DNA of 64,000 bases from Flavobacterium sp. (GCF_039932285.1 NZ_JBDTQE010000006.1:1582-65581); one strand, 5' to 3'; shown: positions 17,037-32,096, counted from the stretch's first letter. Translations and numbers: made by a program. The notes: a model not told the origin generated them from the sequence alone.

Positions 17037-17038
17037 GA

Positions 17039-18367: not shown

Positions 18368-18369
18368 TT

Positions 18370-18798
18370 ATGAAAAAACTAAATATATATAAGATTTTTT
18401 TTACCATTCTGTTAGTTTACGTTTTGACATTCATTCATACTTATTTAAGTATGAATGAATATTCAAACAATTCATCTTCTGCTTGTTTTGGATGTTCATA
18501 TATTGAAGAAATACTAAGATATAGTTTTATTTCTTTGTTTCTTATTCCAATACTGATTATTGCAAATAGGGTTAAAACAACCAATAAAACTAAAATAATC
18601 TTACTGACATTCTTTTTTATCATATTTTTATTTGTAGTAAACACTAGTCTTTTTGATGCAAGAGTTGCTTCTTGGAGTACTTATACTAATGTTGAATTAT
18701 ATATTTCAGTGTTTAGAAAAATGATTATTTCTGGATCTTTTTTTGGACTTATTTTTTATTTTTATTTGAAGTTTTTTTATTTAAAGTCTAACTATTGA
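18370..18798 (+). CDS. Putative membrane immunity protein
   Basis: 142 aa with 3-4 hydrophobic helices and a CxxC loop (SACFGCSY); starts 2 nt after the effector. Confidence 0.55.
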   Translation: MKKLNIYKIFFTILLVYVLTFIHTYLSMNEYSNNSSSACFGCSYIEEILRYSFISLFLIPILIIANRVKTTNKTKIILLTFFFIIFLFVVNTSLFDARVASWSTYTNVELYISVFRKMIISGSFFGLIFYFYLKFFYLKSNY

Positions 18799-18808
18799 TT
18801 CTTTAATT

Positions 18809-19390
18809 TTGAAAAAAATTATATTTATAACAACAGTAATTATAGTACTTTTTTTTATTTTAAAAATTGTCAAAGAAATCAACTGGAATTCAAAACATGA
18901 AGTAGGAGAGATACTCGATAATTATAATGATGTAAAAGTATATTACAATGGTGGAGTAAGTAATACTGAAGGAAGAAATATGACTAAAGACGGCTACAAT
19001 ATTGGCATGAAATATCAGTGTGTCGAATTTGTAAAACGATACTATTATGAACATTTTAATCATAAAATGCCTGACACATATGGCAATGCCAAAGACTTTT
19101 TTGCCAAAGGTGTTAAAGATGGAGAAATGAATACTAAAAGAGACCTTTTGCAATATGTTAATCCTAGTAAAGTCAAGCCAAAAGTAGATGATATTATTAT
19201 TTTTGATAAATCAATATTAAATTCTTACGGTCATGTAGCCATTGTTTCCAAAGTGGAAAATAATTATATTGAAATTGTTCAACAAAATCCAGGTCCTTTT
19301 AGAAACTCAAGAGATACTATTATGCTGAAAGTAAATAATAACTTATGGTTATTAGATAATGACAGAATTCTTGGCAGGTTAAGTAAGTGA
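18809..19390 (+). CDS. CHAP-domain amidase with an N-terminal signal/anchor
   Basis: YQCVEFVKRYY (Cys), YGHVAIV (His) and QQN motifs; hydrophobic N-terminus; TTG start. Confidence 0.85.
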   Translation: MKKIIFITTVIIVLFFILKIVKEINWNSKHEVGEILDNYNDVKVYYNGGVSNTEGRNMTKDGYNIGMKYQCVEFVKRYYYEHFNHKMPDTYGNAKDFFAKGVKDGEMNTKRDLLQYVNPSKVKPKVDDIIIFDKSILNSYGHVAIVSKVENNYIEIVQQNPGPFRNSRDTIMLKVNNNLWLLDNDRILGRLSK

Positions 19391-19607
19391 TTTTTTATGA
19401 AAATGATTTAAAGGCAAAATTTGCTGAGTTGAAAATATCCGAACATATGATAAAAAAACATGGATGATTTAACTAAGATTTTTAATAGTTTTAAATATTA
19501 TAAATAAAAAGAAATAAAATAATTTTATAGTTCGAATTCATTGGACGATTGTTGTAAATTTTAATAAGAATAACAATATTTTTCTAAATCAAAAACATTA
19601 TTATCGA

Positions 19608-20399
19608 ATGGCAATAAACACAAAGGATATATTAATAAACAACACCATTTATTCTAATTTTCAGGACTTTAATAAAGTTTATAATGTAGAAATTACCATT
19701 AAAAGCGATGACGAAAATATAAACATAATTACTTATAAATCGTATGTTTCTTATTTTAAAGAGATTACAAATTCTTATTTTTTGGTTCAAGTAATTATAA
19801 AAGATTTTTTGCTTAATTTTAATGAACCAGATTCGGCTATGGAAAAACTAGCATTAAGATGTAGAGAAGCAATTGAAAAATGTATTTTTAGAGTAAGCAG
19901 TAAAAACGAAATTTTAGATATTGACAACCATTCAGAAATTCTTGGAGCTTGGCAAAAAATAAAAGAACAATTAAGACAAGAAAATGAAGGACAAACATTT
20001 GAAAAGTATATTTATTTATTTGAAAACAGTATAAAAAACAAAGATACTTTACTATTAAGAATCAAGAAAAATCTATTCATTAACCAGTATTTTTTTCCTA
20101 TTTTTGAAGAATACTATCACGGATTAAAGAAAAAAAATATTGAAGAATTTAATTTTTTCAATCTTGATTATAAAGAAGAAGTACTTTTAGAAATTGAAAA
20201 TGAAGGAAAATTCGACAAAGAGAGGAAAGTTACAATTTCAAAAAAAATAATTAGAACAGAAAGTAATACAGAACAAATTCCAATAGAGGAATATGAAGCA
20301 CAATATATTTTAGACAATGATTTATCGTTAGAAAAAATACAAGGAAAATTTTCAAATAACGGAATGAATTATTCTTACACTATAGAAAATGAAGTATAA
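19608..20399 (+). CDS. Hypothetical cytoplasmic protein upstream of the PAAR-like gene (candidate adaptor)
   Basis: 263-aa ORF with no signal peptide and no family recognised. Confidence 0.6.
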   Translation: MAINTKDILINNTIYSNFQDFNKVYNVEITIKSDDENINIITYKSYVSYFKEITNSYFLVQVIIKDFLLNFNEPDSAMEKLALRCREAIEKCIFRVSSKNEILDIDNHSEILGAWQKIKEQLRQENEGQTFEKYIYLFENSIKNKDTLLLRIKKNLFINQYFFPIFEEYYHGLKKKNIEEFNFFNLDYKEEVLLEIENEGKFDKERKVTISKKIIRTESNTEQIPIEEYEAQYILDNDLSLEKIQGKFSNNGMNYSYTIENEV

Positions 20400-20444
20400 A
20401 ATAATGAAGCAATTCATTTCAGTTGCTAAAATAAAATAAAAGAA

Positions 20445-20921
20445 ATGGCAGAAAAACATATAGTGTGCCACGGAGCAATTTGCATGTGCAATTTTGGTGC
20501 AACACCAGACAAGTTAGTGGTAAAGTCCCATAAGAAGGAATTTATCAATGATAAGAACGGGAGCAAAAAATTAATTGCTTCAGACAAAGAACTTGGACCA
20601 ACCTTCGAGAAAAACACCTTTGGACCCTGTCAGAAACAACCTATGGGCAATAGTTACAAACCTTGCCAGGCGGTAGTAACAAAGTGGAGCGGATTTTATG
20701 AAAAAGTAATCCTTGAAAACAAAGGGAAAATACTATTAGAAGATGCAAAAGCAACCTGTCCAATAGGTGGTTCAGATTGTATAAAAATTACTTTTCACGG
20801 ACAAGTAAATGCACCAGAGGCAAGTAGCGCAAAAAATGCCAACCCAGAAATTATGTCAGCACTTAATCCAATGGTCGATATGGAGGAATTTGAAGACCAA
20901 GACGCACCTTATTACAGTTAA
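20445..20921 (+). CDS. DUF4280 PAAR-like spike tip protein
   Basis: VCHGAICMCNFG, FGPCQKQ, KPCQAVVTKW and ATCPIGG Cys pattern of DUF4280. Confidence 0.88.
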   Translation: MAEKHIVCHGAICMCNFGATPDKLVVKSHKKEFINDKNGSKKLIASDKELGPTFEKNTFGPCQKQPMGNSYKPCQAVVTKWSGFYEKVILENKGKILLEDAKATCPIGGSDCIKITFHGQVNAPEASSAKNANPEIMSALNPMVDMEEFEDQDAPYYS

Positions 20922-20923
20922 TT

Positions 20924-23590
20924 ATGAAAGGAATAGCAAAAATTAAAGGTCCTAAAAACCCTATCGTTGGGAAAGATGCTGTTTATGAAGTAGTAGAGTT
21001 TCATAAAGGAACCGTAGTCGTGAATCCAAATACTATAAAGTGGAAAATTTTTAAGAAAAAAGACAATCATTGGGTTGAGGCCAAAGGAAATGAAAAAACA
21101 GGAAAAAAAGTAACATTTAACTTTTCCCAACATTCTTACGGTAAGGACGTATTAGTAGAAGCTTATTTATTTGAGCCTGAAATAAAATCACCTCCAGGAA
21201 TGATTGTAAAACCAGTAATGGGCGAAAGAAAACTACTCAAAGTAGAGATCAAAAATGCCGATGGTGGTGCATTAACTAAGAAGCCCAAGTATGGCGAAAG
21301 CATCATGGTGCAAGCCACTACCGAAAACATGTTAGGCGAAAACCTAAAAATGAGCATATGGGAACGCGACACACTTACAGACGAAGGTCACGATCCTAAG
21401 GGAAATACAAAATTATGGGATGGTAATGTCAAAATTAAAAATGATGGGATTGCCAAAGAAAAAGTAGTTTTAACACCAGGTATGGCAATGTTAGCCAATA
21501 AAAGTTTGATGGAAGGCGGCGAGCACGAGTACTACTTATTAGTAGAAGCCGAAAAAAAAGCCAAAATATCAAATACGGTTGCAGTACAAAATACGGAGAT
21601 AGTATTAAGTCCTAATGTTCCTAAAAAATCTGTTCCAGCACCAACACCAAAACCACAAGAACCTTCAATGCTTGAGCAAATTGAGCTAAAAATTAAAGAT
21701 CTTATAGGTTGGGACAGTAAACCACCAGGAGGGAATAATAAAGCAGTTGTTGAGGATGGAAAAACCCCTAAGGTAGAAGGTATTATTACTGCCTATTTTG
21801 CTAAGGAAGAATTTACAAAAGAAGGTTCAGAAACTGCGGGGCAATATAAATACAAATTTCAAAGTAGTAATACTAATATTGACAAAGACAAGGTAGCAGG
21901 AATCATTAAAAAAAGGGTTGATATAGATGTAAAAGTTGATAAAAAGTATTCCAAACATGAGGATATTAAAAATGCACTAACAATAACTACATACAAAAAA
22001 GGAGATTTTATTTCTTTTAATTTATATAAATTAGAAGCTAATTTTGTAAAAATAACAAATGCTCCTTTAGAAGAAGTGTTATACGTTGTCGTAAATACAT
22101 ATTTATTAGATGGAAAAGAAGTTACTATTGAAATAAAAGAAAAAGAAGTAATTTTGGTTGGTGCTGATGCAAATTTACCTGTGTTAGAAGGAAAAGAAAA
22201 TGGAAGTGAAATTACAATATTGAAAACAAAAGTAGAAAAAGGAATTGCCAAAGTAAAAATAAAAATTCGCCCTAAGACAGATGAAACATTAGCTACTTGG
22301 AAAGAAAAACTAACTGGAATAAAAGACGGAACCTACAAGTATAAATTTGTCAATAATAATACCACTACTACATCTGAACAAAAGAAAATTGCAGCTAATG
22401 CTATTGCTAATAAAATAAAAGACACACTTGCTGGAAAGAAAAAATTTACAAAAGTAGATGCTATTGAAAAATCTTTAACAAAGTCAGTATATAACAAAGA
22501 CGAGGAAATTACTTTTGATGTATATAAAAGTGTTATAGGAAATCTATGGTTAAACGCGGAATGTCAAGGTGACACTAAAAAGCATAAAGGAGAGTTTTTG
22601 AAAAGGGATGGAGAGTATTTTGTGATTGGTCAAAAGTGTGAATGCGAAGCAAGAATAAAAGCTTTTATGAGAATGTTACGTATTGGAGAAGGAACAGAAG
22701 GAGATGGAGGTTACACAACTCAATATAGCGGAACACAATTTAGCGATATGAGCAAGCATCCTGAAAATGTTATTACAGCTGGCAACTATTCGTCTTCTGC
22801 TGCAGGAGCTTATCAAATCATGAGGTATACATGGTGGTGGTTAGGTGGGGAAAAATTGACTGAAAACAATACAAAAGCTGGTGTTTATGAAGAAAATCAT
22901 GATTATATTAAAAAGTATAGCATTCCTGATTTTACTCAAGAATCTCAAGACAAATTATGCGTCATTATATTAAAGCATAAAAGACCAGGAAGTATTGAGT
23001 TAATAACGTCTAATAAAACGAAGGAAGCATTAGAAAAATATGGTAGTTATGAATGGGCTAGTTTGCCACCAGGTAGATATGGACAGCCAGCACAAACAAT
23101 GGAAAATGCCTTGTCTAAATATGAAAAATTTTTAAAAGAAGAATTAGAAGGAAAAACGAATTTATATTTAAAAAATGGATTTGCCAAAGAATTTAATATT
23201 GTTTGTAATTGTAAAAAAGCATCAGCAAAGACAGGATATGATATAGATGCAGCAGTAACGTATATTGAATCTCATGCAGAGGCTAGTTCAACTTCTGCTT
23301 GTGCAAAATATGTTAGACAGGCTGTTGAAGCTGGAGGACTTACGTCAAATGCTTCACCAAGAAATGCACTAAACTATTTTACAATTCTAAAAGATTTAGG
23401 TTTTACGGAACTTCAAACAACTAGCTATATAAAAGGAGATATTGTAGTTTTTGACGGAGTCGAAGGTCATCAATACGGACACATTGCTATGTGGACAGGT
23501 ACGCAATGGATTTCTGATTTTAAACAAAATAGTATAATCGTAAACACCGCATACAATAATGGTCAAAGTTCAATTTTTAGATGGCAATAA
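20924..23590 (+). CDS. T6SS peptidoglycan effector: lambda-lysozyme-like (GH104) domain plus C-terminal NlpC/P60-CHAP-like amidase
   Basis: LRIGEGT, SSAAGAYQ, DFTQESQD and EWASLP..YGQ match lambda R lysozyme motifs. CAKYVRQA, GDIVVF, YGHIAM and WISDFKQ form a Cys/His amidase. Confidence 0.8.
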   Translation: MKGIAKIKGPKNPIVGKDAVYEVVEFHKGTVVVNPNTIKWKIFKKKDNHWVEAKGNEKTGKKVTFNFSQHSYGKDVLVEAYLFEPEIKSPPGMIVKPVMGERKLLKVEIKNADGGALTKKPKYGESIMVQATTENMLGENLKMSIWERDTLTDEGHDPKGNTKLWDGNVKIKNDGIAKEKVVLTPGMAMLANKSLMEGGEHEYYLLVEAEKKAKISNTVAVQNTEIVLSPNVPKKSVPAPTPKPQEPSMLEQIELKIKDLIGWDSKPPGGNNKAVVEDGKTPKVEGIITAYFAKEEFTKEGSETAGQYKYKFQSSNTNIDKDKVAGIIKKRVDIDVKVDKKYSKHEDIKNALTITTYKKGDFISFNLYKLEANFVKITNAPLEEVLYVVVNTYLLDGKEVTIEIKEKEVILVGADANLPVLEGKENGSEITILKTKVEKGIAKVKIKIRPKTDETLATWKEKLTGIKDGTYKYKFVNNNTTTTSEQKKIAANAIANKIKDTLAGKKKFTKVDAIEKSLTKSVYNKDEEITFDVYKSVIGNLWLNAECQGDTKKHKGEFLKRDGEYFVIGQKCECEARIKAFMRMLRIGEGTEGDGGYTTQYSGTQFSDMSKHPENVITAGNYSSSAAGAYQIMRYTWWWLGGEKLTENNTKAGVYEENHDYIKKYSIPDFTQESQDKLCVIILKHKRPGSIELITSNKTKEALEKYGSYEWASLPPGRYGQPAQTMENALSKYEKFLKEELEGKTNLYLKNGFAKEFNIVCNCKKASAKTGYDIDAAVTYIESHAEASSTSACAKYVRQAVEAGGLTSNASPRNALNYFTILKDLGFTELQTTSYIKGDIVVFDGVEGHQYGHIAMWTGTQWISDFKQNSIIVNTAYNNGQSSIFRWQ

Positions 23591-23599
23591 ACAATAATT

Positions 23600-24484
23600 A
23601 TGAAAAAAGCAGCACTATTTTTATTTATAATAATAACACAATCTTGTTTTAAAAAAACAGATAACGTAGTTAAAACAGATGATCAAGTTTTAAAAGCAAC
23701 TACAAATGCTATTGAATTGGTTGAAGTTAGTGATTCAGTAGCTAAAGATTTGAAATCTTTTTATACATCATACATTTCAGAAAACGCCAAAAATGTGGTA
23801 GATAGAAGCTTTTTAAAAGAGTTAAAAAATAAATATGTAACACAAAGTTTTTTAAACAAACTTCAAAAATTAGAATTAGATTATGATCCTTTCGTTAATG
23901 CACAAGATTATAATTCCGAATGGATAAAAAATTTAGGAATAATTAAAGATAATTCAAAAGAAAATACCTATAACGTAATTATTACAGATAATGGTGTAAG
24001 AACTAATATTTTATTAGTTCTTAAAAAAGAACAAAATCAGTATAAAATTGACGATATAGCTAATTTGCCTAATAATACAATTGTTGCTGATAAAATCGAA
24101 AATTACTCGCAAGAAGAAGTTACTGGTATATGGAAGACAGTTTGTCAAGCTAATAAAACTGCTTTATTAGCTAATGATTCTTCACATGGTTATCTTGATG
24201 TTTATATTAATAATGATTATGCTAGAGTTGCTGTAGAAATAGTCAATAATACTGATGTAAAATACTCTGTTCTTACTGGTATCACTAGATACAATAAGTT
24301 TGTTAATTGGCTTTATATATCAAATGACAGTATAGTTTGTAAAGTTAAAAGAACAAATGAAAATGAACTTGAATTAGAATGGCTAGGTTTCTATAACAAG
24401 AAAACCAAAAAGAGAGAAATGGTCAAAAATCCATTTAATAATGAGATTAAAACTAATTTAGTTGAATTAAGAAAATGTCAATAA
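23600..24484 (+). CDS. Immunity lipoprotein with a DUF3828-like N-terminal domain and a second beta domain
   Basis: Lipobox ITQSC; FYTSY...KYVT...LDYDPFVNAQD is typical of DUF3828; directly after the effector. Confidence 0.7.
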   Translation: MKKAALFLFIIITQSCFKKTDNVVKTDDQVLKATTNAIELVEVSDSVAKDLKSFYTSYISENAKNVVDRSFLKELKNKYVTQSFLNKLQKLELDYDPFVNAQDYNSEWIKNLGIIKDNSKENTYNVIITDNGVRTNILLVLKKEQNQYKIDDIANLPNNTIVADKIENYSQEEVTGIWKTVCQANKTALLANDSSHGYLDVYINNDYARVAVEIVNNTDVKYSVLTGITRYNKFVNWLYISNDSIVCKVKRTNENELELEWLGFYNKKTKKREMVKNPFNNEIKTNLVELRKCQ

Positions 24485-24494
24485 ATTAGTATAG

Positions 24495-24700
24495 AGATAC
24501 ACTTATTTATTATTTGCAATCTTTTTTAACTATCAGCATAAATAGCAATAAAAACATGACTAATGATAAATGACATGTCCTTATTGCTATTAAACACAGT
24601 AGTTTCTTTCAATTCTCAGGTTAATGAAAAAAGATTATATTTGAGAATTGATTCAAGTAAAACAACAATAAAGTTAATTTGTGATTATGAAGAAGAATAA
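24495..24700 (+). pseudogene. Decayed lipoprotein 5' remnants, copy 1 of a ~200-bp degenerate duplication
   Basis: TTATTGCTATTAAACACAGTAGTTTCTTTCAATTCTCAGGTTAAT...GTAAAACAACAA aligns with 25636-25749; frameshifts and stops are present. Confidence 0.65.
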
Positions 24701-24703
24701 CAA

Positions 24704-25525
24704 ATGAAAAATAATTTTTTAATATACATATTAATTTTACTTTTTTTTAGTTGCAAACAATCAAATCAAGAGTTAGATAATGCTTCAATTAAGGGAAATG
24801 ATAGTTTAAAAATTGATTCTTTAAAAATAATATCTGATACGAATATAACTTTACCAAAAAACAGTGAAAAATCTTTTACTTTTGAATGTGGTTCAGGTTG
24901 CGCTATGACCTATGATGAAATTTCTAGAAAGAAAAATAAAGGAAGTTATGAATTAAAATATAAAGTGACCCAGTATGTTAATGAAAAAATTGAAGATGAA
25001 TATTTTGAAACTTATGTTTTTGAACAAAATATTAATGGAAGGTTAGAAAGCATTCATTTGTTAGGTAAAGATGAAAATATTTTATTGGACGAAAGTTCAT
25101 TAATTAAAAATAAATTCAAAGAAATAGGGAGTATTTTTTTTAGAGATGATAATTTAGATACGTCACAGCAAAGCACAATTAAATTTGTTGTAGAAGAAAA
25201 ACCATACAAGTTACTTGAAGTTCCTTTTGATTTAAAAAAGTATATTGACAATTTACCACAAAAAATTAAGAATTCCTATAATCCATCAAATGGTTTGATA
25301 GATTATTTAGTGAAAAATGGTTATGAAGGGGAAAATTATAGTTGTAATTTTTTAAAAATATCAGAAAAATCTTCGGACTTATTGGTTTCTATTTCTAGAG
25401 GAGATTCCCAATATTTTTTAATTATAAAATCTGATAACACCAAATTCTTATCTTATAAGGAGATTGGAAGCATTGGAGAGGAGACTAAATATTTTAGAAT
25501 AGATAATAATTACGATGTCAAATAA
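24704..25525 (+). CDS. Orphan immunity-like lipoprotein, probably C-terminally truncated
   Basis: Lipobox FFSC. The end YFLIIK...YFRIDNNYDVK* aligns with YFLVTI...SFTIDEDYTI of 27600-28205 but stops earlier. Confidence 0.65.
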   Translation: MKNNFLIYILILLFFSCKQSNQELDNASIKGNDSLKIDSLKIISDTNITLPKNSEKSFTFECGSGCAMTYDEISRKKNKGSYELKYKVTQYVNEKIEDEYFETYVFEQNINGRLESIHLLGKDENILLDESSLIKNKFKEIGSIFFRDDNLDTSQQSTIKFVVEEKPYKLLEVPFDLKKYIDNLPQKIKNSYNPSNGLIDYLVKNGYEGENYSCNFLKISEKSSDLLVSISRGDSQYFLIIKSDNTKFLSYKEIGSIGEETKYFRIDNNYDVK

Positions 25526-25528
25526 AAC

Positions 25529-25750
25529 ATGAGATATATTAACTGCAATCTTAATTTTAACTATAAGTACAAATAGTTTTAAAAACGCGACTAACGAGAA
25601 TGAATTAAGCACACATGAGAAAGTTAATATGCGCATTATTGCTATTAAATATAGTAATTTCTTGCAATTCACAGGTTAATAAAAAGATTATATTGGAGAA
25701 TGGATAGAAGTAAAACAACAAAAAAATGAATTTGTGGTTATGAAGGAGAA
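25529..25750 (+). pseudogene. Decayed lipoprotein 5' remnants, copy 2
   Basis: The ATG at 25615 reads MRKLICALLLLNIVISCNSQVNKK (lipobox VISC), then a frameshift in the A-run leads into DYIGEWIEV. Confidence 0.65.
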
Positions 25751-25835
25751 ATTTTGAAAGTTTCTGATTATTCAATTTTTGAGCACGGAGTGATGGAGAA
25801 TTCAAATTAATTAATAACAATTATAAATTTACTCT

Positions 25836-26771
25836 ATGTACAAACTTAATTATAAATTCCTAGGAATTTTTACGCTCTTTATCTTAATAATCTCGTGTAA
25901 AAATGATTCAGCATCAATTGTTAACAGTCAAATTGATGGTAATATAGAAAGTAAAGAGGTAGCTTCTGTTTCATTAGGAGACTCATTAATTTCTCAGTCA
26001 GATTTTGTAAATAAAATTAATTCAAACATTGATTTTAAGGAAAAAAGAGCTACGATATCAAAAATAAAATATGATTTCAACAAATATACCTCCTGGACAG
26101 ACAATACAACAGAAGAAAAACAGCTTGAGGATATTGGTTTAAAATTTAAAAAGGAGAGCCAGATTAAAAATGATGCTGATATTTATATTAATATAGGACT
26201 TATTGTTAGTAAAAATAATAAGCAAACAGATAAACTTACCGTTTACAAACAAGAAAATTATGCGGAAGCATTGGTTGCGGTTAGTCAATACTTTTATGTA
26301 GATGGTAATTTAAATTTATGGACATTAGGAATAGAAGAAGATGAAGAAGGAATATATGTTAAATCTTGGAATCAATACAAAATTGAAAAAGAAACTGGAA
26401 AAATTAAACTAGTAAAAGAAAATATAAAGGTTAAAAAAGAGGTTGCAACTGAGACAAGTAATAATTGGACTGGCAAATATTTTTTCGAAAAAACAAATAG
26501 AGATGAATTGAAAACCAGCTTTAACATCACAATAAATGATTTAAATTTAATATCACTAATTTATATTAGTGATGATGAAAAACCTGAAACATATAAAAAT
26601 CTTAAAGCTGAAAAACTTGATGATGATAAAATAAAAATTACTTTTAATAAAAAGTATAGAGACATGGGTATTATATATATACAAAAATCTGAAAATGATT
26701 ATATAATTTCAGGAGACGCCATATCAAACATCAATCCGGGTAATGATGAGTACCCTTTGAAAAGAATATAA
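25836..26771 (+). CDS. Orphan immunity-like lipoprotein (two domains)
   Basis: Lipobox IISC; C-terminal domain begins WTGKYFFE. Confidence 0.65.
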   Translation: MYKLNYKFLGIFTLFILIISCKNDSASIVNSQIDGNIESKEVASVSLGDSLISQSDFVNKINSNIDFKEKRATISKIKYDFNKYTSWTDNTTEEKQLEDIGLKFKKESQIKNDADIYINIGLIVSKNNKQTDKLTVYKQENYAEALVAVSQYFYVDGNLNLWTLGIEEDEEGIYVKSWNQYKIEKETGKIKLVKENIKVKKEVATETSNNWTGKYFFEKTNRDELKTSFNITINDLNLISLIYISDDEKPETYKNLKAEKLDDDKIKITFNKKYRDMGIIYIQKSENDYIISGDAISNINPGNDEYPLKRI

Positions 26772-26820
26772 ATAAGATAATCTATTATAAGTGTGATAAT
26801 AGGATTAGTACAAAATAACC

Positions 26821-27591
26821 ATGATTAAAATATTTAACTTGTTAATTCTAGGTTTATTTTTTATATGTAGCAAAAACAAAACTACTGTAGATAATGATAA
26901 AATAAATTTAGTGAATCTCAAAATTGAGAATACCATAAATAAAGATTTTAATGGTATTTGGAATTATGAATTTAATTCTGATGAAAATGAATTACTTAAT
27001 AAAACTTTTGAGTTGAAATTAATAACTGAAAAAGATATTATTAAAGCTCAGTATTGTGCTATAACTAAAGGGGGTCGTAAAATTGATTGTAACGACAAGG
27101 TAGTTTATAACATAAATGGTAATATAAAAAACAATATTGCTTATGTAGATTTCAAAGGTTTTTTTGACATTAAAGCAAAGGGAAAAGCAAAAATTTATTA
27201 TGAAGGGAACAATCTAATATGGGAAATAATTAGTGTAGAAGGCGAAATTTTTGCTCCTAAAAAAGCTATTTTAAATCCTGTCAAATCAAGTGAAAATACT
27301 ATCGAAGGTTTATATGTTTTAAAAACATGTGAAGGCTCAAGGTTTAAAATAAAAATCATTAAAAAAGATAACGCTTTCGAGTATTCTATTTTAGATCAAA
27401 AAAAATCAATAAGTAAAGGATTAGTTAAAATTGAAAAGGATAAAAATAAAACGTATTTAACTTTTGGGAAAATACAAGGAATATATGATGATGCAAATAA
27501 GATACAGATTCAAAATTATGGCAATTCTATGAATGAGTATGCACACTTTACTCAATGTGATGAAAAGTATCTGTCTTTTATTAAACAATAA
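26821..27591 (+). CDS. Orphan immunity-like lipoprotein (two GxW/GxY-initiated beta domains)
   Basis: Lipobox-like FFIC; domains begin FNGIWNY and IEGLYVL; paired cysteines. Confidence 0.6.
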   Translation: MIKIFNLLILGLFFICSKNKTTVDNDKINLVNLKIENTINKDFNGIWNYEFNSDENELLNKTFELKLITEKDIIKAQYCAITKGGRKIDCNDKVVYNINGNIKNNIAYVDFKGFFDIKAKGKAKIYYEGNNLIWEIISVEGEIFAPKKAILNPVKSSENTIEGLYVLKTCEGSRFKIKIIKKDNAFEYSILDQKKSISKGLVKIEKDKNKTYLTFGKIQGIYDDANKIQIQNYGNSMNEYAHFTQCDEKYLSFIKQ

Positions 27592-27599
27592 AATTAAAA

Positions 27600-28205
27600 A
27601 TGAAACACTTAAAAAGTAAACTTATATTAATATTTTTGATATTAATTACTGTTACAACTAGTTGTAAAAATAATGACACTAAATCAGAGGATACAAAAAC
27701 AACAAAGACGGATGATAGTAAGATAAAATTCGAAATAATTAAAGGTACTAAGGATACTTTACAAAAAGATAATTGTATCATTGAAAGTAATTTTTTACTC
27801 CCTTACGCAAAAAAAACAGACATAAAAAAAGTTGCCTATAATAATTTGAAGTGCAATATACGTGGTGTTGAAGAGTTATTATGTGGAGAAAAAAATCTGC
27901 GATATATATCTTTGCCAAGTTTTAAAAATATAAAAGTAATTCTTGTACCTATGGATTGTGGGGATTTTAATTATCGTTATTTTTTAGTTACTATATTTCA
28001 AAATAAAGTAGTTTCAAAGCAATATGTTGAAGGGGAATGGTACGAACCTGGTGATGATAGCTATAAAGAAGTTACTAGTTTTACAATAGATGAAGATTAT
28101 ACAATCACAATTACAACAAATGCTATTGAAAGTGGTCAAAGTTCTATAAAAGAAAATTTAAGGTTTGAGATTTTTGAGCATGGTGTTTTGAAAAGAATTA
28201 ATTAA
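27600..28205 (+). CDS. Orphan immunity-like lipoprotein
   Basis: Lipobox TTSC; last intact gene of the array. Confidence 0.65.
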   Translation: MKHLKSKLILIFLILITVTTSCKNNDTKSEDTKTTKTDDSKIKFEIIKGTKDTLQKDNCIIESNFLLPYAKKTDIKKVAYNNLKCNIRGVEELLCGEKNLRYISLPSFKNIKVILVPMDCGDFNYRYFLVTIFQNKVVSKQYVEGEWYEPGDDSYKEVTSFTIDEDYTITITTNAIESGQSSIKENLRFEIFEHGVLKRIN

Positions 28206-28294: not shown

Positions 28295-28731
28295 AGCAGG
28301 AATGACAATTTTAGTCAATAAAAGTTTGATGGAAGGCGGCGAGCATGAATACTACCTACTAGTAGAAGCCGACAAAAAATCTAAAATATCAAACACGGTT
28401 GCAGTGTAAAATAAGGAAATAGTATTAGATCCTAATGCCCCTAAAAAAATCTGCACCATCACCAAAACCAAAAAAACCTCTAATACTCGAGTAAATTCGG
28501 CCAAAAATAAAAGGACTTGTAGGTTGAAACAAAGTAACTTTGGTGGGACTAGAGAAGCGATTCTAGATGATAGGAGAATTCCTAAGTTATAATGATTGTT
28601 GTGGACTATTTGCTAAGGAAGAATTTAAAAAAAAAGACTCTGAAACTACTGAGCAATACAAATGTAAATTTCAAGATAACAATACCACTATTGATAACTA
28701 TAAGGGAGCAAGGATCATTAAAAAAAGGTTA
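28295..28731 (+). pseudogene. Degenerate ~440-bp copy of an internal part of the 888-aa effector gene (about 21475-21920)
   Basis: AATAAAAGTTTGATGGAAGGCGGCGAGCA...GTAGAAGCCGA...ATCATTAAAAAAAGG are collinear with the effector gene; CAA->TAA and TGG->TGA stops plus an extra A. Confidence 0.85.
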
Positions 28732-28752
28732 ATTTTTTATTTTCTAGAAAAT

Positions 28753-28787
28753 CTTCATTTAATCTTCATCTAACAGAAATACTTTTG
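28753..28787 (+). promoter_or_regulatory. CTTCAT-N5-CTTCAT tandem repeat plus -7 box (TACTTTTG) for small peptide 1
   Basis: CTTCAT at 28753 and 28764; TAnnTTTG at 28780-28787. Confidence 0.75.
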
Positions 28788-28827
28788 GTTTATAAATAAT
28801 TCAATTTATAAATTAAAACCCAATGTC

Positions 28828-28995
28828 ATGAAAAAAGTATTTTTGTTAGCAGCATTATTTTTAGGAACAACTGCAATGGTAAACGCACAAACTGAACCAG
28901 CTAAAAAAGAAGTAAAGAAAGAAGCTAAAGCAACTAAAAAAGTTGTAAAAAAAGAAGTGAAAGCTACAACAGAGGCTGTAAAGGCAAAAAAATAA
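28828..28995 (+). CDS. Small exported Lys-rich peptide 1 (55 aa; not in the ORF track)
   Basis: MKKVFLLAALFLGTTAMVNA|QTEPAKKEVKKEAKATKKVVKKEVKATTEAVKAKK, with its own promoter and terminator. Confidence 0.8.
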   Translation: MKKVFLLAALFLGTTAMVNAQTEPAKKEVKKEAKATKKVVKKEVKATTEAVKAKK

Positions 28996-29017
28996 TTAAA
29001 CTTGTTTAACTGCTTTG

Positions 29018-29047
29018 AAACCGACAAAATTATTTGTCGGTTTTTTT
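29018..29047 (+). terminator. Rho-independent terminator
   Basis: AAACCGACAAA-atta-TTTGTCGGTTT followed by a T-run. Confidence 0.85.
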
Positions 29048-29172
29048 GTTGCTTTAAACTTAAAACTCCTCTAAGAAATCCAGCTTAAAACATAAAAATA
29101 AGTTAACATACTTATTGTGTATTGAAAAGAAGGCGATTACTTCATTAACTTTAATCAAAAATATATAAAATT

Positions 29173-29709
29173 ATGAAGACAGACACCCAGAATATTCTAA
29201 AATCCGAAAAAAATCAACTAGTAAAACTTCAAAATATAGTAAATAATACTATTGATGAAGAAAAGTTAATTATAAAAAATTTGCTACATCAACCCGAAGA
29301 AATACTTACAAAAGGGCAATCTATTTCGGATAAAGTAGCATCATTTGGAGGAAGTTGGAAATTTATCATTCTGTTTGGCATCGTTCTTTTTGTATGGATT
29401 TTATTTAACACAATAACACCTAAAATATTTAATTTTGATCCGTATCCATTTATTTTAATGAATCTTATTTTGTCTTGTATTGCGGCATTACAAGCTCCAA
29501 TTATTATGATGAGCCAGAATAGACAAGAAGAAAAAGACAGAAAACGAGCAGAAAATGATTATTTAATTAATTTAAAATCTGAATTAGAACTAAGGAGTCT
29601 GCATCAAAAAATTGATTTACTTTTAGAAGAACAAATCAAAGTTTTATTTGAAAGTCAAGCAAAACAACTTGAAATTTTAAAATCGATCGAAAAAAAGATT
29701 AAAATATGA
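29173..29709 (+). CDS. DUF1003 membrane protein
   Basis: VASFGGSW, FDPYPFILMNLILS and QAPIIMMSQNRQ are diagnostic DUF1003 motifs. Confidence 0.9.
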   Translation: MKTDTQNILKSEKNQLVKLQNIVNNTIDEEKLIIKNLLHQPEEILTKGQSISDKVASFGGSWKFIILFGIVLFVWILFNTITPKIFNFDPYPFILMNLILSCIAALQAPIIMMSQNRQEEKDRKRAENDYLINLKSELELRSLHQKIDLLLEEQIKVLFESQAKQLEILKSIEKKIKI

Positions 29710-30380
29710 ATATTCTTATTGTAGAAGATAACATAGAATTAGCAAAAGAAGTAAGTCATTTTCTTTCTAATTCAGGACATATTTGCAAAATTTCAAACAA
29801 TTGTAATGAAGCGTATGAAGAAATAAATAGTAATGATTATGATGTTATACTATTAGATTTGGGCTTACCAGATGGAACCGGATTCGATATTCTTAAATCC
29901 GTTCGAAAAACGGCTTCTAAAACGGCAATCATTATCATTACAGCGCGAGGCGAACTTGACGATAGGATAAATGGTTTGCATTTAGGAGCCGATGATTATC
30001 TCACCAAACCGTTTGCGCTTACCGAACTTCAAGCGCGATTATTTGCGGTAATTAGACGAATTCATGGGTTCACAAATAATGAATTAAAAGTGCATGATTT
30101 CAGTATTCAATTGCAAGATTACAAAGTTAGTTTTAATGATATTTTAATCAATTTAACCAAAAAGGAATTTGATATTTTTCAGTATTTAGTTTTAAATAAG
30201 AATAGAGTAATTACCCGTTTACAACTTACTGAGCATGTTTGGGGAGATATTCTTGAGGTTAATTCTGATTCTAATTTTATCGATGTTCATGTGCGTAATC
30301 TGAGAAAAAAACTAGACAAACATTCTAAAATAGATTGGTTTGAAACCGTTAGAAATGTAGGTTATCGAATAAACATTTAA
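29706..30380 (+). CDS. OmpR-family response regulator
   Basis: LIVED, LLDLGLPD, GADDYLTKPF and a winged-helix C-terminus (ETVRNVGY). Confidence 0.92.
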   Translation: MNILIVEDNIELAKEVSHFLSNSGHICKISNNCNEAYEEINSNDYDVILLDLGLPDGTGFDILKSVRKTASKTAIIIITARGELDDRINGLHLGADDYLTKPFALTELQARLFAVIRRIHGFTNNELKVHDFSIQLQDYKVSFNDILINLTKKEFDIFQYLVLNKNRVITRLQLTEHVWGDILEVNSDSNFIDVHVRNLRKKLDKHSKIDWFETVRNVGYRINI

Positions 30381-30383
30381 GAA

Positions 30384-31715
30384 ATGAAAATAAAGCACCA
30401 ACTTGCCATTTTTAATGCCATTTCGAGATTAATTCTCATACTAATATTATGGTTTGTATTGCCTATTTTGGTTCAAAAAGTAGTTTATCATAACACAAAT
30501 AAAAATTTACTAGAGAAGAAAGAAAAGTTTGTAAAAAACCTTGATAAACAAGAAATTTATGATTTTATAGTTAGAAATGACACGACCGAAACGTATTCCA
30601 GTTTTTCGACTTTACATAGCGAGTTTTTACAATTATATCAAATATCGAAAGAAGATTTTTCGAAAAAAGATCTTTTTTTGAAAGAAAACCGCACCATCGA
30701 AAATGAAGAAAATGAATATTTAATTCTGCAACATGATTTTGTTTATGACAAAATATTCTACGAACTCGAAATTGGTTCAAATCTTTCCGAAATTAACGAT
30801 TTTACACATGTAATTCGGCTTTTTATCATCGCAGTATTGCTTGTAATAGTCGTTTTTACTTTCTTGATTGATACTTTTTATATCGAATATTTACTAAAAC
30901 CTTTTTATAAAATTATTGATAAAAAAATTCGTCATGTAAATGAACCCGAAAATTTTGACAGTGCTCCAATTATTGCTCATTCTTCCGATTTTCAGGAGTT
31001 AGACACTGTTCTTAACGAAATGATGAACAGAATTAATGACCTTTTCAAAAAAGAAAAACAATTTATTGCTAATGTTTCACACGAATTATTAACACCAATT
31101 GCATTGTTAAAAAGCAAATTTGAAAACTTAATTCAAAATGAATCGCTCGATGACAATGCAATAGATAAAATTTCTAGTTCGCTAAAAACGCTAGATTTAT
31201 TAAAGAAAGTCATTAATAATTTGTTGTTAATTTCTAGAATTGAAAACAATCAATATTTAATAAATGAAAAAGTTAATTTGGAAGAATTGTTTTCGGAATT
31301 AATAGAAAATTTAGAAGATCGAATTAACGAAAAAAAATTAATTGTAACAAAAAACATCAAACACGAAATTAATTTTACAGGAAACAAAACCCTCATGCAC
31401 GTTTTGTTATACAATTTATTAGTAAATGCTATAAAATACAATAATCAAAACGGAAATATTTCCATTTCAGACGAATTTGTAAACGAAAAATACTGCGTTA
31501 TAATAAAAGACTCAGGAATTGGAATCGATGAATTACAGTTAAAAAATATTTTTGAGCGCTTTACTAGATTTAGTCACAATCACGAAGGACATGGTTTAGG
31601 GCTCGCAATTGCTAGTAGTATTGCTCACTTTCATAAGGTAGAAATCAATGTTATTTCAGAACCTAATATAGGAAGTTCTTTTTGCCTAATATTCCCTGAT
31701 TTCGGTAAAAGTTAA
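30384..31715 (+). CDS. Sensor histidine kinase
   Basis: Two TM helices flanking a periplasmic domain; H-box FIANVSHELLTP; N-box NLLVNAIKY; G boxes DSGIGI and GLGL. Confidence 0.92.
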   Translation: MKIKHQLAIFNAISRLILILILWFVLPILVQKVVYHNTNKNLLEKKEKFVKNLDKQEIYDFIVRNDTTETYSSFSTLHSEFLQLYQISKEDFSKKDLFLKENRTIENEENEYLILQHDFVYDKIFYELEIGSNLSEINDFTHVIRLFIIAVLLVIVVFTFLIDTFYIEYLLKPFYKIIDKKIRHVNEPENFDSAPIIAHSSDFQELDTVLNEMMNRINDLFKKEKQFIANVSHELLTPIALLKSKFENLIQNESLDDNAIDKISSSLKTLDLLKKVINNLLLISRIENNQYLINEKVNLEELFSELIENLEDRINEKKLIVTKNIKHEINFTGNKTLMHVLLYNLLVNAIKYNNQNGNISISDEFVNEKYCVIIKDSGIGIDELQLKNIFERFTRFSHNHEGHGLGLAIASSIAHFHKVEINVISEPNIGSSFCLIFPDFGKS

Positions 31716-31736
31716 ATTTCTCTTAAGCCTTATAAT

Positions 31737-31771
31737 CTTCATCTAAACTTCATTTTCTGATTATACATTTG
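31737..31771 (+). promoter_or_regulatory. CTTCAT-N5-CTTCAT tandem repeat plus -7 box (TACATTTG) for small peptide 2
   Basis: CTTCAT at 31737 and 31748; TAnnTTTG at 31764-31771; same spacing as at 28753. Confidence 0.75.
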
Positions 31772-31832
31772 ATTTATAATTATGGGGACAATAATTATAA
31801 AACTAAAAAAATAACCATTAAATCTAAAAAAG

Positions 31833-32003
31833 ATGAAAAAATTAGTAATGTTAGTTGCAGTAATAGGATTTTCTGCAATGTCTTTCGCTCAAGATGCTTC
31901 GGCTACAAAACCAGCTAAAAAACACCACAGAAAACACCACAAAACTGAGATGAAAAAAGAAGCTGCTGCAAAACAAGAAATGGCAACTCCAGCAAAAAAA
32001 TAA
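31833..32003 (+). CDS. Small exported Lys/His-rich peptide 2 (56 aa; Asr-like; not in the ORF track)
   Basis: MKKLVMLVAVIGFSAMSFA|QDASATKPAKKHHRKHHKTEMKKEAAAKQEMATPAKK. Confidence 0.8.
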   Translation: MKKLVMLVAVIGFSAMSFAQDASATKPAKKHHRKHHKTEMKKEAAAKQEMATPAKK

Positions 32004-32053
32004 TTTAATTTTCTAATTGCTTTGTATTAAGGTTAAGCTATTAAATCATGAAG

Positions 32054-32096
32054 GATAGTATTCGAAAAGTGTTTTCGAATACTATCTTTTCTTTTT
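32054..32096 (+). terminator. Rho-independent terminator
   Basis: Perfect 15-bp stem GATAGTATTCGAAAA-gtg-TTTTCGAATACTATC followed by TTTTCTTTTT. Confidence 0.85.

What the first reader, a model, noticed from the sequence alone, without database searches (positions are those of the whole stretch)
28753..32096. Two-component module flanked by two peptide genes with identical promoter architecture
Seen: both small peptide genes are preceded by CTTCAT-N5-CTTCAT-N10-TAnnTTTG. The repeats lie at 28753/28764 with a -7 box at 28780, and at 31737/31748 with a -7 box at 31764. Both genes end in strong terminators. Between them lie DUF1003, an OmpR-family regulator and a kinase. Established: OmpR/PhoB regulators bind tandem direct repeats with an 11-bp period, and TAnnTTTG is the Bacteroidota -7 element. 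Inference: this is a compact regulon in which the local response regulator activates two exported peptides, and the motif is its candidate binding site. I know of no description of it.
Basis: partly seen in the sequence, partly recalled or inferred. Interest (0 to 1): 0.78.

Follow-up and report, generated by a model that had tools for sequence, protein, structure and literature searches.

The report
Flavobacterium sensor system driving polycationic peptides
A sensor kinase/regulator pair found in about a fifth of Flavobacterium species is flanked by genes for small, exported, lysine-rich peptides, each behind the same almost invariant tandem-repeat promoter, which is most likely the regulator's binding site in an undescribed cell-envelope stress response.

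Summary
CTTCAT-N5-CTTCAT-N10-TAnnTTTG occurs exactly twice in the 2.89-Mb genome, at 28753 and 31737. Each copy precedes a monocistronic gene for an exported peptide that ends in a terminator.

- 41 of 201 genomes of the genus carry the kinase orthologue, and all 41 have the motif beside it. A 42nd motif genome has the regulator orthologue next to its motif.
- None of 299 other genera of the family has the motif or the kinase.
- Among 79 loci chosen by the kinase alone, 78 have the full motif just after the kinase gene.
- The regulator's DNA-binding domain is almost invariant across 80 orthologues.

The repeats fall at about -39 to -23, over the -33 region and 10 bp from the -7 box, as in PhoB-type activated promoters. 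The half-site resembles the PmrA box.

The mature peptides are about 45 residues, 32% lysine, net +8 to +10, with a PAKEVKATKH core and no known family. In relatives the same motif also precedes MprF, an LtaS/OpgB-like transferase, KdsA and a PepSY-like protein. This points to envelope-charge stress.

Binding, the signal and the peptide function are all untested. I found no prior description.

The parts
28728..28732 (+). GTTAA upstream element of promoter 1, 25 nt before the first CTTCAT. A weak ATTAAA lies 11 bp further up, at 28717-28722.
   Evidence: GTTAA lies at -25/-26 from the repeat start in 69/70 upstream and 78/78 downstream sites of relatives. What binds it is unknown.
28753..28769 (+). 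Tandem direct repeat CTTCAT-TTAAT-CTTCAT, the predicted regulator operator of promoter 1, at about -39 to -23.
   Evidence: The position relative to the start site assumes the TAnnTTTG box spans -12 to -5 (PMC9723704).
28780..28787 (+). -7 box TACTTTTG of promoter 1. The predicted transcription start is near 28792.
   Evidence: The sigma-A consensus TAnnTTTG spans -12 to -5 in Flavobacterium. The start site was not measured.
28828..28995 (+). Peptide gene 1, 55 aa. Sec signal MKKVFLLAALFLGTTAMVNA, then a 35-aa mature peptide with 13 Lys and net charge +8 (Lys/Ala type).
   Evidence: Homologues behind the same motif occur in about 100 loci. No Pfam or NCBIfam family matched.
29017..29051 (+). 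Intrinsic terminator of peptide gene 1.
   Evidence: 12-bp stem plus T run, dG -15.2, z -4.5.
29102..29153 (+). Candidate weak promoter of the DUF1003-regulator-kinase operon: GTTAA (29102-29106), a single CTTCAT (29140-29145) and a -7-like TAACTTTA (29146-29153).
   Evidence: The same GTTAA-N38/39-TAAnTTTA layout lies upstream of the regulator gene in relatives, and the stretch is 81% identical in L051. Its function is inferred only.
29173..29709 (+). DUF1003 membrane protein. Its stop overlaps the regulator's start. It is a lineage-specific insertion.
   Evidence: Pfam PF06210, 134.5 bits. It is present only here and in L051 among related loci.
29706..30380 (+). OmpR/PhoB-family response regulator, 224 aa. 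The predicted phospho-acceptor is D51 and the recognition helix is SNFIDVHVRNLRKKL.
   Evidence: The DNA-binding domain is invariant in 80 orthologues.
30384..31715 (+). Sensor histidine kinase, 443 aa: TM1, an acidic periplasmic domain (aa 33-140), TM2, a linker, HisKA (H233) and HATPase.
   Evidence: The sensor domain averages net charge -7.5. The AF2 model has pLDDT 75 and a weak PAS/PDC-like (WalK) match.
31711..31715 (+). GTTAA upstream element of promoter 2. It overlaps the kinase stop codon and lies 26 nt before the repeat.
31737..31753 (+). Tandem direct repeat CTTCAT-CTAAA-CTTCAT, the predicted regulator operator of promoter 2.
31764..31771 (+). -7 box TACATTTG of promoter 2. The predicted transcription start is near 31776.
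31833..32003 (+). Peptide gene 2, 56 aa. Signal MKKLVMLVAVIGFSAMSFA, then a 37-aa mature peptide with KKHHRKHHK, net charge +7 and 4 His.
   Evidence: L051 has the orthologue in the same place. No family matched.
32050..32096 (+). Intrinsic terminator of peptide gene 2.
   Evidence: 19-bp stem, dG -25.6, z -5.1.

Best explanation
This is a two-component envelope-stress module restricted to about 20% of Flavobacterium species.

Proposed mechanism:
1. The kinase senses a periplasmic or envelope cue through a conserved acidic PAS/PDC-like domain. The cue is unknown. Low divalent cations, acid or cationic compounds are the best guesses.
2. The kinase phosphorylates the OmpR/PhoB-family regulator.
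3. A head-to-tail regulator dimer binds CTTCAT-N5-CTTCAT at about -39 to -23. There it replaces or overlaps the -33 element, 10 bp upstream of the -7 box.
4. From that position it recruits sigma-A RNA polymerase, as PhoB does at pho boxes.

In this genome the outputs are two monocistronic genes for Sec-exported, disordered, polycationic peptides, paralogues of one family. These probably act in the periplasm or outer membrane as charge-shielding or chaperone-like protectants, by analogy with E. coli Asr. In relatives the same operator also drives MprF, an LtaS/OpgB-like transferase, KdsA and a PepSY-like protein. The upstream peptide promoter there also reads through a conserved hairpin into the regulator-kinase operon, giving positive autoregulation.

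Shown here: the anatomy, conservation, co-occurrence and composition.
Inferred: binding, activation rather than repression, the signal and the peptide function.
For: Rarity and conservation:
- The motif is unique to these two promoters in the genome.
- It occurs in 43/201 genomes of the genus, nearly always as two same-strand copies 2.2-2.8 kb apart. The reversed control gave 0/201, and the motif is in 0/299 other genera.

Link to the two-component system:
- The kinase orthologue is in 41/201 genomes, all of which carry the motif beside it, and in 0/299 other genera. G056 has the regulator orthologue next to its motif.
- In the kinase-anchored sample, 78/79 loci have the strict motif and 79/79 the repeat after the kinase gene. 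Upstream of the regulator gene, 69/76 have the strict motif.
- The repeat positions are invariant while the spacers vary.
- The regulator's DNA-binding domain is invariant.

Promoter geometry:
- The PmrA box is two hexamers, CTTAAG/xTTAAT, separated by 5 bp and bound head-to-tail (PMC3973317). PmrA is the regulator's best NCBIfam match, although below cut-off.
- The -7 box spans -12 to -5 (PMC9723704), which places the repeat over the -33 region.
- Only 61/148 sites have TTTG in the spacer, and the window has none.

Gene units and peptides:
- The distance from motif to ATG is almost always 41-46 nt, and the terminators are confirmed.
- The peptides have a signal peptide, are 32% Lys with net charge +8 to +10, lack aromatic residues and share a conserved core.

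Wider regulon:
- Extra sites in relatives are all intergenic and co-oriented, in front of MprF, a Sulfatase-family transferase, KdsA, a PepSY-like protein and a small membrane protein.
- A conserved hairpin lies about 80 nt before the regulator gene, and 67/71 of these intergenic regions lack a canonical -7 box.
Against: - There is no experimental or transcript evidence.
- One genome (G009, 93% complete) keeps a perfect motif and peptide cassette but has no detectable orthologue of the regulator or kinase.
- A second near-invariant element, GTTAA, often present as GTTAAT-N5-GTTAAA, lies upstream and could be the regulator's true or additional site.
- In relatives the spacer is often TTTGT, a possible -33 element. 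Repression by occlusion therefore cannot be excluded.
- The extra regulon members are absent or lack the motif in this genome. The kdsA and transferase sites carry one mismatch, and each may reflect a single inherited event.
- The peptide function rests on analogy only. There is no sequence match to Asr.
Confidence: 0.7

Rival explanations
1. The peptides are primarily feedback ligands of the kinase. Once exported, the polycations bind the acidic periplasmic sensor domain and tune its activity up or down, like MgrB on PhoQ or CpxP on CpxA. The module would then be a self-contained feedback circuit and not a protective response.
For: - The sensor domain is conserved and acidic, with mean net charge -7.5 and an invariant IExEENEY patch.
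- The peptides carry net +8 to +10 and share a specific conserved core, PAKEVKATKH. This goes beyond mere composition and suggests a defined partner.
- The peptide genes are always glued to the two-component genes.
Against: - The peptide genes are multi-copy and variable in length, at 2-4 per locus. That fits dosage of a bulk product better than a ligand.
- One orphan cassette exists without the two-component system.
- No interaction evidence is obtainable here.
- This reading is compatible with, not exclusive of, the best explanation.
Confidence: 0.2
2. The two promoters look alike only because the peptide genes are paralogues made by duplicating a gene together with its promoter. On this view the CTTCAT repeat is not a regulator site, or it is bound by an unlinked factor.
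For: - The peptides are clearly paralogous, sharing the signal peptide and core.
- The similarity extends beyond the motif, including GTTAA upstream and TTTATAA downstream.
- G009 keeps the motif without the local two-component system.
Against: - Shared ancestry alone cannot keep 12 positions invariant in about 150 sites across species whose kinases are only 51-66% identical, while the 5-nt spacer and the 10-nt linker vary freely.
- The same motif sits in front of unrelated genes (MprF, PepSY-like protein, transferase, KdsA).
- Motif and kinase co-occur in 41/41 genomes against 0/158.
Confidence: 0.06
3. The module is a peptide-pheromone (quorum-sensing-like) three-component system. The exported peptides would be autoinducers sensed by the kinase, with the repeat providing the positive feedback loop, as in ComCDE or PlnABCD of Gram-positive bacteria.
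For: - The layout is a peptide gene next to a kinase and regulator.
- Direct repeats lie upstream of both the peptide gene and, by read-through, the regulator operon.
- The mature peptides are cationic.
Against: - The peptides have ordinary Sec/SPase I signals. There is no double-glycine leader and no dedicated exporter or processing gene in any locus.
- A 45-residue polycation has no evident route across the outer membrane.
- The mature sequences are low-complexity and variable in length.
- The regulator is OmpR-type, not LytTR.
Confidence: 0.04

Closest known systems
E. coli Asr with PhoBR/RstAB (acid shock protein)
   Same: Asr is a Sec-exported, Lys/His/Ala-rich, intrinsically disordered periplasmic protein expressed as a monocistronic unit. 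It is massively induced through OmpR-family regulators and protects the envelope as a chaperone/aggregase (PMC10746267, citing Seputiene 2003 and Ren 2022). That PhoB and RstA control it is from my own knowledge.
   Different: - There is no sequence relationship. The Pfam Asr family did not match even at E<=10.
- The peptides here are half the size and occur in 2-4 paralogous copies.
- They are physically flanking their two-component system, whereas asr is unlinked to phoBR and rstAB.
- The signal is unknown.
PmrA/PmrB (BasRS) and its PmrA box
   Same: - The regulator is OmpR-family, and PmrA is its best NCBIfam match.
- The operator is two hexamers separated by 5 bp, bound head-to-tail. CTTAAG/xTTAAT compares with CTTCAT/CTTCAT.
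- The regulon theme in relatives is modification of envelope charge.
   Different: - The regulator scores 187 bits against a cut-off of 330, so it is not a PmrA equivalog.
- The kinase sensor domain is unrelated.
- The half-site differs at position 4.
- The targets are peptides, MprF and an LtaS-like transferase, not arn/eptA.
PhoB pho-box promoters (class II activation)
   Same: Tandem direct repeats with an 11-bp period replace the upstream promoter hexamer and end 10 bp before the downstream element. The pho-box geometry is from my own knowledge.
   Different: - The promoter is the Bacteroidota sigma-A type (-33/-7).
- The half-site is different.
- The regulator is not the Bacteroidota PhoB, scoring 148.6 bits against a cut-off of 270.
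CpxP/CpxRA, MgrB/PhoPQ and ZraP/ZraSR (small envelope proteins induced by, and acting on, their own two-component system)
   Same: A small exported protein gene lies next to the two-component system, or is controlled by it, and is among its strongest outputs.
   Different: Those proteins are folded or membrane-inserted and single-copy. Feedback is untested here, and there is no homology.
GraRS/ApsRS of Staphylococcus aureus
   Same: An OmpR-family system controls mprF and surface-charge genes in response to cationic peptides (PMC3128592, abstract seen; that mprF is a target is from my own knowledge).
   Different: - It is a Gram-positive intramembrane-sensing kinase that works with an ABC transporter.
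- It has no peptide outputs.
- MprF carries the motif in only one of the genomes examined here.

Membership tests
OmpR/PhoB family response regulators | An N-terminal receiver domain plus a C-terminal winged-helix Trans_reg_C domain. | tested here: met
   PF00072 scores 89.6 bits and PF00486 scores 80 bits, both above their gathering scores. The closest solved structures are DrrD, RegX3 and BasR.
PmrA/BasR equivalog | A score above the NCBIfam cut-off for NF007928. | tested here: not met
   187 bits against a cut-off of 330.
Bacteroidota PhoB equivalog | A score above the NCBIfam cut-off for NF053854. | tested here: not met
   148.6 bits against a cut-off of 270.
PorY family sensor kinases | A score above the NCBIfam cut-off for NF052314. 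| tested here: not met
   243.3 bits against a cut-off of 350.
OmpR-family operator (tandem direct repeat) | Two hexamer half-sites in direct orientation with a period of 10-11 bp. | tested here: met
   CTTCAT-N5-CTTCAT with an 11-bp period is invariant in about 150 sites. Compare the PmrA box.
OmpR-family operator (tandem direct repeat) | Specific binding by the cognate phosphorylated regulator. | not testable with these tools
   This needs EMSA, footprinting or DAP-seq.
Class II (PhoB-like) activated promoter | The operator overlaps or replaces the upstream promoter element at a fixed short distance from the downstream element. | tested here: met
   The repeat ends exactly 10 nt before TAnnTTTG in all strict sites. 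With the box at -12 to -5, the repeat spans -39 to -23. The window promoters have no TTTG at -33.
Class II (PhoB-like) activated promoter | Transcription depends on the regulator, and the start site lies just downstream of the -7 box. | not testable with these tools
Asr (acid shock protein, Pfam PF06392) | A sequence match to the Asr repeat model. | tested here: not met
   No Asr hit appeared for 7 peptides at E<=10 or.
Asr (acid shock protein, Pfam PF06392) | A Sec signal peptide followed by a polybasic, low-complexity, disordered mature part. | tested here: met
   An SPase I-type signal and a mature part with 32% Lys, 8% Pro, no aromatic residues or Cys, and net charge +8 to +10.
Peptide-pheromone three-component systems (ComCDE/Pln/Agr type) | A dedicated leader (double-glycine or AgrD type) with a linked exporter or processing gene, and usually a LytTR regulator. 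| tested here: not met
   The peptides have ordinary Sec signals, no transporter gene occurs in about 100 loci, and the regulator is OmpR-type.
MprF (in the relative G170, as a regulon member) | LPG_synthase_TM plus LPG_synthase_C domains. | tested here: met
   PF03706 scores 68.6 bits and PF09924 scores 190 bits. The NCBIfam bifunc_MprF model scores 579 bits against a cut-off of 600, just below the equivalog threshold.

The most novel reading that the evidence does not exclude
The lysine-rich peptides are not just protectants. They would be self-made polycationic ligands that the kinase's acidic sensor domain reads. That would be a Bacteroidota three-component circuit in which a Gram-negative cell secretes its own CAMP-like peptides into the periplasm, to set or latch the activity of an envelope-charge regulon that includes MprF and LPS/lipid transferases. 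The invariant PAKEVKATKH core would be the recognition epitope.
Probability: 0.15. Interest if true: 0.75.

Novelty: new variant of a known kind. Interest (0 to 1): 0.5.

Why it matters
Regulons of two-component systems in Bacteroidota are almost uncharted. This case offers a nearly invariant operator, a defined promoter geometry on the phylum's unusual -33/-7 promoters, and a very small target set.

It could therefore serve as a clean model for how OmpR-family activators work with Bacteroidota sigma-A. It also defines a new, unannotated family of exported polycationic micro-proteins, present in 2-4 copies per locus in soil and freshwater Flavobacterium. Finally, it links that family to envelope-charge functions (MprF, LtaS/OpgB-like transferase, Kdo synthesis), which suggests a PhoPQ/PmrAB-like response in a phylum where none is described.

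All of this can be tested with standard genetics in tractable Flavobacterium strains.

Tried and rejected
- Wider regulon in this genome: the weight-matrix scan found only the two known sites. The kdsA and sulfatase-family homologues here lack the motif, and MprF and the PepSY-like protein are absent.
- Orthologues outside the genus, sought to test co-variation of half-site and recognition helix: there are none. Neither kinase nor motif occurs in 299 other genera.
- Asr homology: rejected. The TIGR02953 'MXKDX repeat' and Conotoxin hits are sub-threshold noise from the signal peptide.
- A metal-sponge reading based on the His residues: rejected as the conserved function, because 43/77 downstream-type and 11/72 upstream-type peptides have no His.
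- An antimicrobial or membrane-lytic peptide reading: unlikely, because there are no aromatic residues, almost no large hydrophobic residues, and 8% Pro.
- RgzAB of F. johnsoniae is an unorthodox hybrid kinase and is not this module.
- Fold of the sensor domain: only a weak PAS/PDC-like (WalK) resemblance, with E 0.02-0.05 and TM about 0.5. This does not reveal the ligand.
- Literature searches found no description of the module.
- The protein database names the peptides only 'hypothetical protein', plus one stray 'RcnB' label.


Full report
**Observation**

- Site 1 has CTTCAT at 28753 and 28764, and TACTTTTG at 28780.
- Site 2 has CTTCAT at 31737 and 31748, and TACATTTG at 31764.
- Each motif is followed by a short ORF with a Sec-type signal peptide: 28828-28995 (55 aa) and 31833-32003 (56 aa).
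- Each ORF ends in a strong intrinsic terminator: 29017-29044 (dG -15.2, z -4.5) and 32050-32090 (19-bp stem, dG -25.6, z -5.1).
- Between the two sites lie DUF1003, an OmpR-type response regulator and a HisKA/HATPase kinase.

The pattern is rare.
- In the whole 2.89-Mb assembly (31% G+C) the exact repeat CTTCAT-N5-CTTCAT occurs only at these two places, on either strand.
- A 39-nt weight matrix built from relatives' sites scores them at 44.8 and 42.3 bits. Nothing else in the genome exceeds 12 bits.

**Conservation**

The exact 35-nt pattern is present in 43 of 201 genomes of the same genus. It almost always appears as two same-strand copies 2.2-2.8 kb apart, and the reversed control pattern gave no hits. 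It is absent from 299 genomes representing other genera of the family, where the control gave 3 hits.

The kinase has orthologues (51-66% identity) in 41 of the same 201 genomes. All 41 carry the motif directly beside the kinase, and no other genus has such a kinase. Two genomes have the motif but lack the kinase hit:
- G056 is a 73%-complete assembly. It has the regulator orthologue (83% identity) next to the motif at a contig end.
- G009 is a true orphan. It has one motif-plus-peptide cassette between unrelated genes and no orthologous regulator or kinase.

Record titles show that the genus is Flavobacterium. Named species include F. hibernum, F. aquidurense, F. anhuiense, F. pectinovorum, F. 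hydatis and F. saccharophilum, among many others.

The next test avoids circularity, because the 80 loci were retrieved by the kinase protein alone.
- Of the 79 with enough downstream flank, 78 have the strict motif within 330 nt after the kinase gene and all 79 have the repeat. The median distance from the kinase gene to the repeat is 42 nt.
- 69 of 76 have the strict motif upstream of the regulator gene.
- The 12 repeat positions are invariant, while the 5-nt spacer and the 10-nt linker vary.
- The regulator's DNA-binding domain (residues about 150-224) is essentially invariant in 80 orthologues, while the receiver domain varies.

**Anatomy of the module in relatives**

The usual order is as follows:
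1. motif;
2. peptide A, with the signal MRNLLMLLVAVLGTSAMV.A and a core of ..PAKEVKATKHPKHK..;
3. often a second tandem peptide, A2, with no motif of its own;
4. a conserved hairpin, GCTGAT..ATCAGC followed by T6, about 80 nt before the regulator gene;
5. regulator;
6. kinase;
7. motif;
8. peptide B, with mature sequence ..AQTTPA..KEVKATKK..AKK.

The distance from the -7 box to the ATG is almost always 41-46 nt.

Only 4 of 71 peptide-A-to-regulator intergenic regions contain a canonical TAnnTTTG. In two species the motif lies directly upstream of the regulator gene, still with the hairpin in between. The regulator-kinase operon is therefore probably fed by attenuated read-through from the motif promoter, which would give positive autoregulation. 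A weak GTTAA-N38-TAAnTTTA promoter may add to this.

The window's lineage is atypical in three ways.
- A Lys-type peptide lies upstream and a His-rich one (KKHHRKHHK) lies downstream.
- DUF1003 is inserted as the first, translationally coupled gene of the operon. Only the window and its nearest relative L051 (kinase 92% identical) have it.
- Relative to L051, a 440-bp cassette holding a third motif and peptide is missing from the window.

**Promoter geometry**

In Flavobacterium the sigma-A box TAnnTTTG spans -12 to -5 (PMC9723704). This predicts transcription starts near 28792 and 31776, and it places the repeat at about -39 to -23, over the -33 element.
- Only 61 of 148 sites have TTTG in the spacer, and the window's spacers (TTAAT, CTAAA) have none.
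- Tandem hexamers with an 11-bp period that end 10 bp before the downstream promoter element are the geometry of PhoB pho boxes. That comparison is from my own knowledge.
- The PmrA box is CTTAAG/xTTAAT separated by 5 bp and bound head-to-tail (PMC3973317).
- PmrA is the regulator's best NCBIfam match, but at 187 bits against a cut-off of 330. Bacteroidota PhoB scores 148.6 against 270. The kinase's best match, PorY, scores 243 against 350.

The system is therefore a distinct, unnamed OmpR-family pair. I infer class II activation by a phosphorylated regulator dimer. Repression by occlusion is a minor alternative.

**The peptides**

Across about 150 examples the mature parts share these features:
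- length of 43-47 residues;
- 32% Lys, 17-25% Ala, 10% Glu, 10% Thr and 8% Pro;
- no aromatic residues or Cys;
- net charge of +8 to +10;
- a C-terminus ending in K;
- a shared core, P-A/T-K-E-V-K-A-T-K-H.

They match no Pfam or NCBIfam family, including Asr at E<=10. Public records call them hypothetical proteins.

Functionally they most resemble E. coli Asr. I find it holds for composition and logic but not for sequence.

**The sensor**

The kinase's periplasmic domain (aa 33-140) is well conserved and acidic, with mean net charge -7.5 and an invariant IExEENEY segment. An AlphaFold model has pLDDT 75. It shows a long helix, a short helix, a four-stranded sheet and TM2. Its best, weak, PDB matches are the PAS/PDC-like extracytoplasmic domain of WalK. 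This fits a PhoQ-style cation or polycation sensor but does not prove it.

**Wider regulon in relatives**

I allowed one mismatch, or a relaxed second half-site and -7 box, in the 41 genomes that carry the module. This gave few extra sites, against 2-3 control hits. All 11 sites I fetched are intergenic, co-oriented and 16-40 nt from a start codon. Together with the exact site already fetched (L047), they precede the following genes:

| Downstream gene | Genomes | Evidence |
|---|---|---|
| KdsA | 10 | |
| A ~700-aa membrane protein of the Sulfatase family, similar to LtaS/OpgB | 4 | |
| A PepSY-like secreted protein | 3, plus 2 where it lies inside the module | |
| A 121-aa membrane protein | 2 | |
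| An MprF homologue (exact motif, G170) | 1 | |

This theme of membrane and LPS charge and biogenesis supports an envelope-stress role. It is the basis for comparing the system with PhoPQ/PmrAB and GraRS. In the window's own small genome these genes are absent or lack the motif, so here the predicted regulon is just the two peptides.

**Unexplained**

A second element, GTTAA(A/T), lies 25-26 nt upstream of the repeat in 69/70 upstream and 78/78 downstream sites. In upstream sites it is usually duplicated 11 bp further up, as GTTAAT-N5-GTTAAA. It recurs before the regulator gene. In the window it lies at 28728, 29102 and 31711, the last overlapping the kinase stop codon. Similar GTTAAW repeats with an 11-bp period occur at about 9 other places in the genome. 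It could be a second regulator's box, an additional low-affinity site for this regulator, or an UP-like element.

**Verdict**

It is a new variant of a familiar design, in which a two-component system has small exported proteins as its principal outputs. No literature on it was found. Binding, the inducing signal and the peptide function all remain to be tested.

Noticed in passing
window 28728-28732, 29102-29106, 31711-31715; relatives L051-L130: A near-invariant GTTAA(A/T) element lies 25-26 nt upstream of every CTTCAT repeat. In upstream sites it is usually a GTTAAT-N5-GTTAAA direct repeat. It also recurs about 70 nt before the regulator gene. What binds it is unknown.
   Followed up: partly
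G000 contigs C27:3926(-), C11:3914(-), C10:54245/55425, C16:7813(-), C37:22490: GTTAAW-N5-GTTAAW repeats with an 11-bp period, some in triple, occur at about 9 other intergenic-looking places in the window's genome. This may be the box of another OmpR-type regulator.
   Followed up: no
window 29047-29053 compared with L051:731-1172: Relative to its closest relative, the window lacks a 440-bp cassette carrying a third motif, a KIRKHK-type peptide gene and a terminator. DUF1003 is present only in these two genomes and overlaps the regulator's start codon.
   Followed up: yes
L047 (G170:C57:5500-11500): An exact copy of the motif lies 32 nt upstream of an 874-aa MprF homologue (aminoacyl-phosphatidylglycerol synthase/flippase), far from the module.
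   Followed up: yes
L131-L141 (G012, G193, G105, G098, G008, G139, G025, G085): One-mismatch motif copies lie just upstream of KdsA, an LtaS/OpgB-like Sulfatase-family membrane protein, a PepSY-like secreted protein and a 121-aa membrane protein. Each is conserved in several species.
   Followed up: yes
L048 (G009:C3:20000-28000): An orphan cassette of motif and peptide sits between a secreted protein gene and an HMG-CoA-reductase-like gene. The genome has no orthologue of the regulator or kinase and is 93% complete.
   Followed up: partly
L083 (Flavobacterium denitrificans DSM 15936): The downstream repeat is intact, but the -7 box is degenerate (GATCTTTG) and the peptide B gene is deleted, leaving only its terminator. 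This is an example of output loss.
   Followed up: no
L115:1395-1820 and other loci with ~420-nt intergenic regions: A second peptide gene (A2, for example MRNLFIVLAAVLGTTAMVSAQTAPTQAAPAKEVKATKHHK...) follows peptide A directly, with no motif of its own and no terminator between them. Many species therefore have three or more peptide genes per module.
   Followed up: partly
window 28792-28800 and 31776-31785; all relatives: The first transcribed bases after the -7 box are conserved (consensus TTTGatcTaTAAAatAaa) at both upstream and downstream sites. This may be an initiation-region or 5'-UTR element.
   Followed up: no
window 16800-28205: Upstream of the module lies what other first-stage notes describe as a T6SS effector/immunity array. 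Neighbouring genes differ in every relative, so it shows no conserved link to the module.
   Followed up: no
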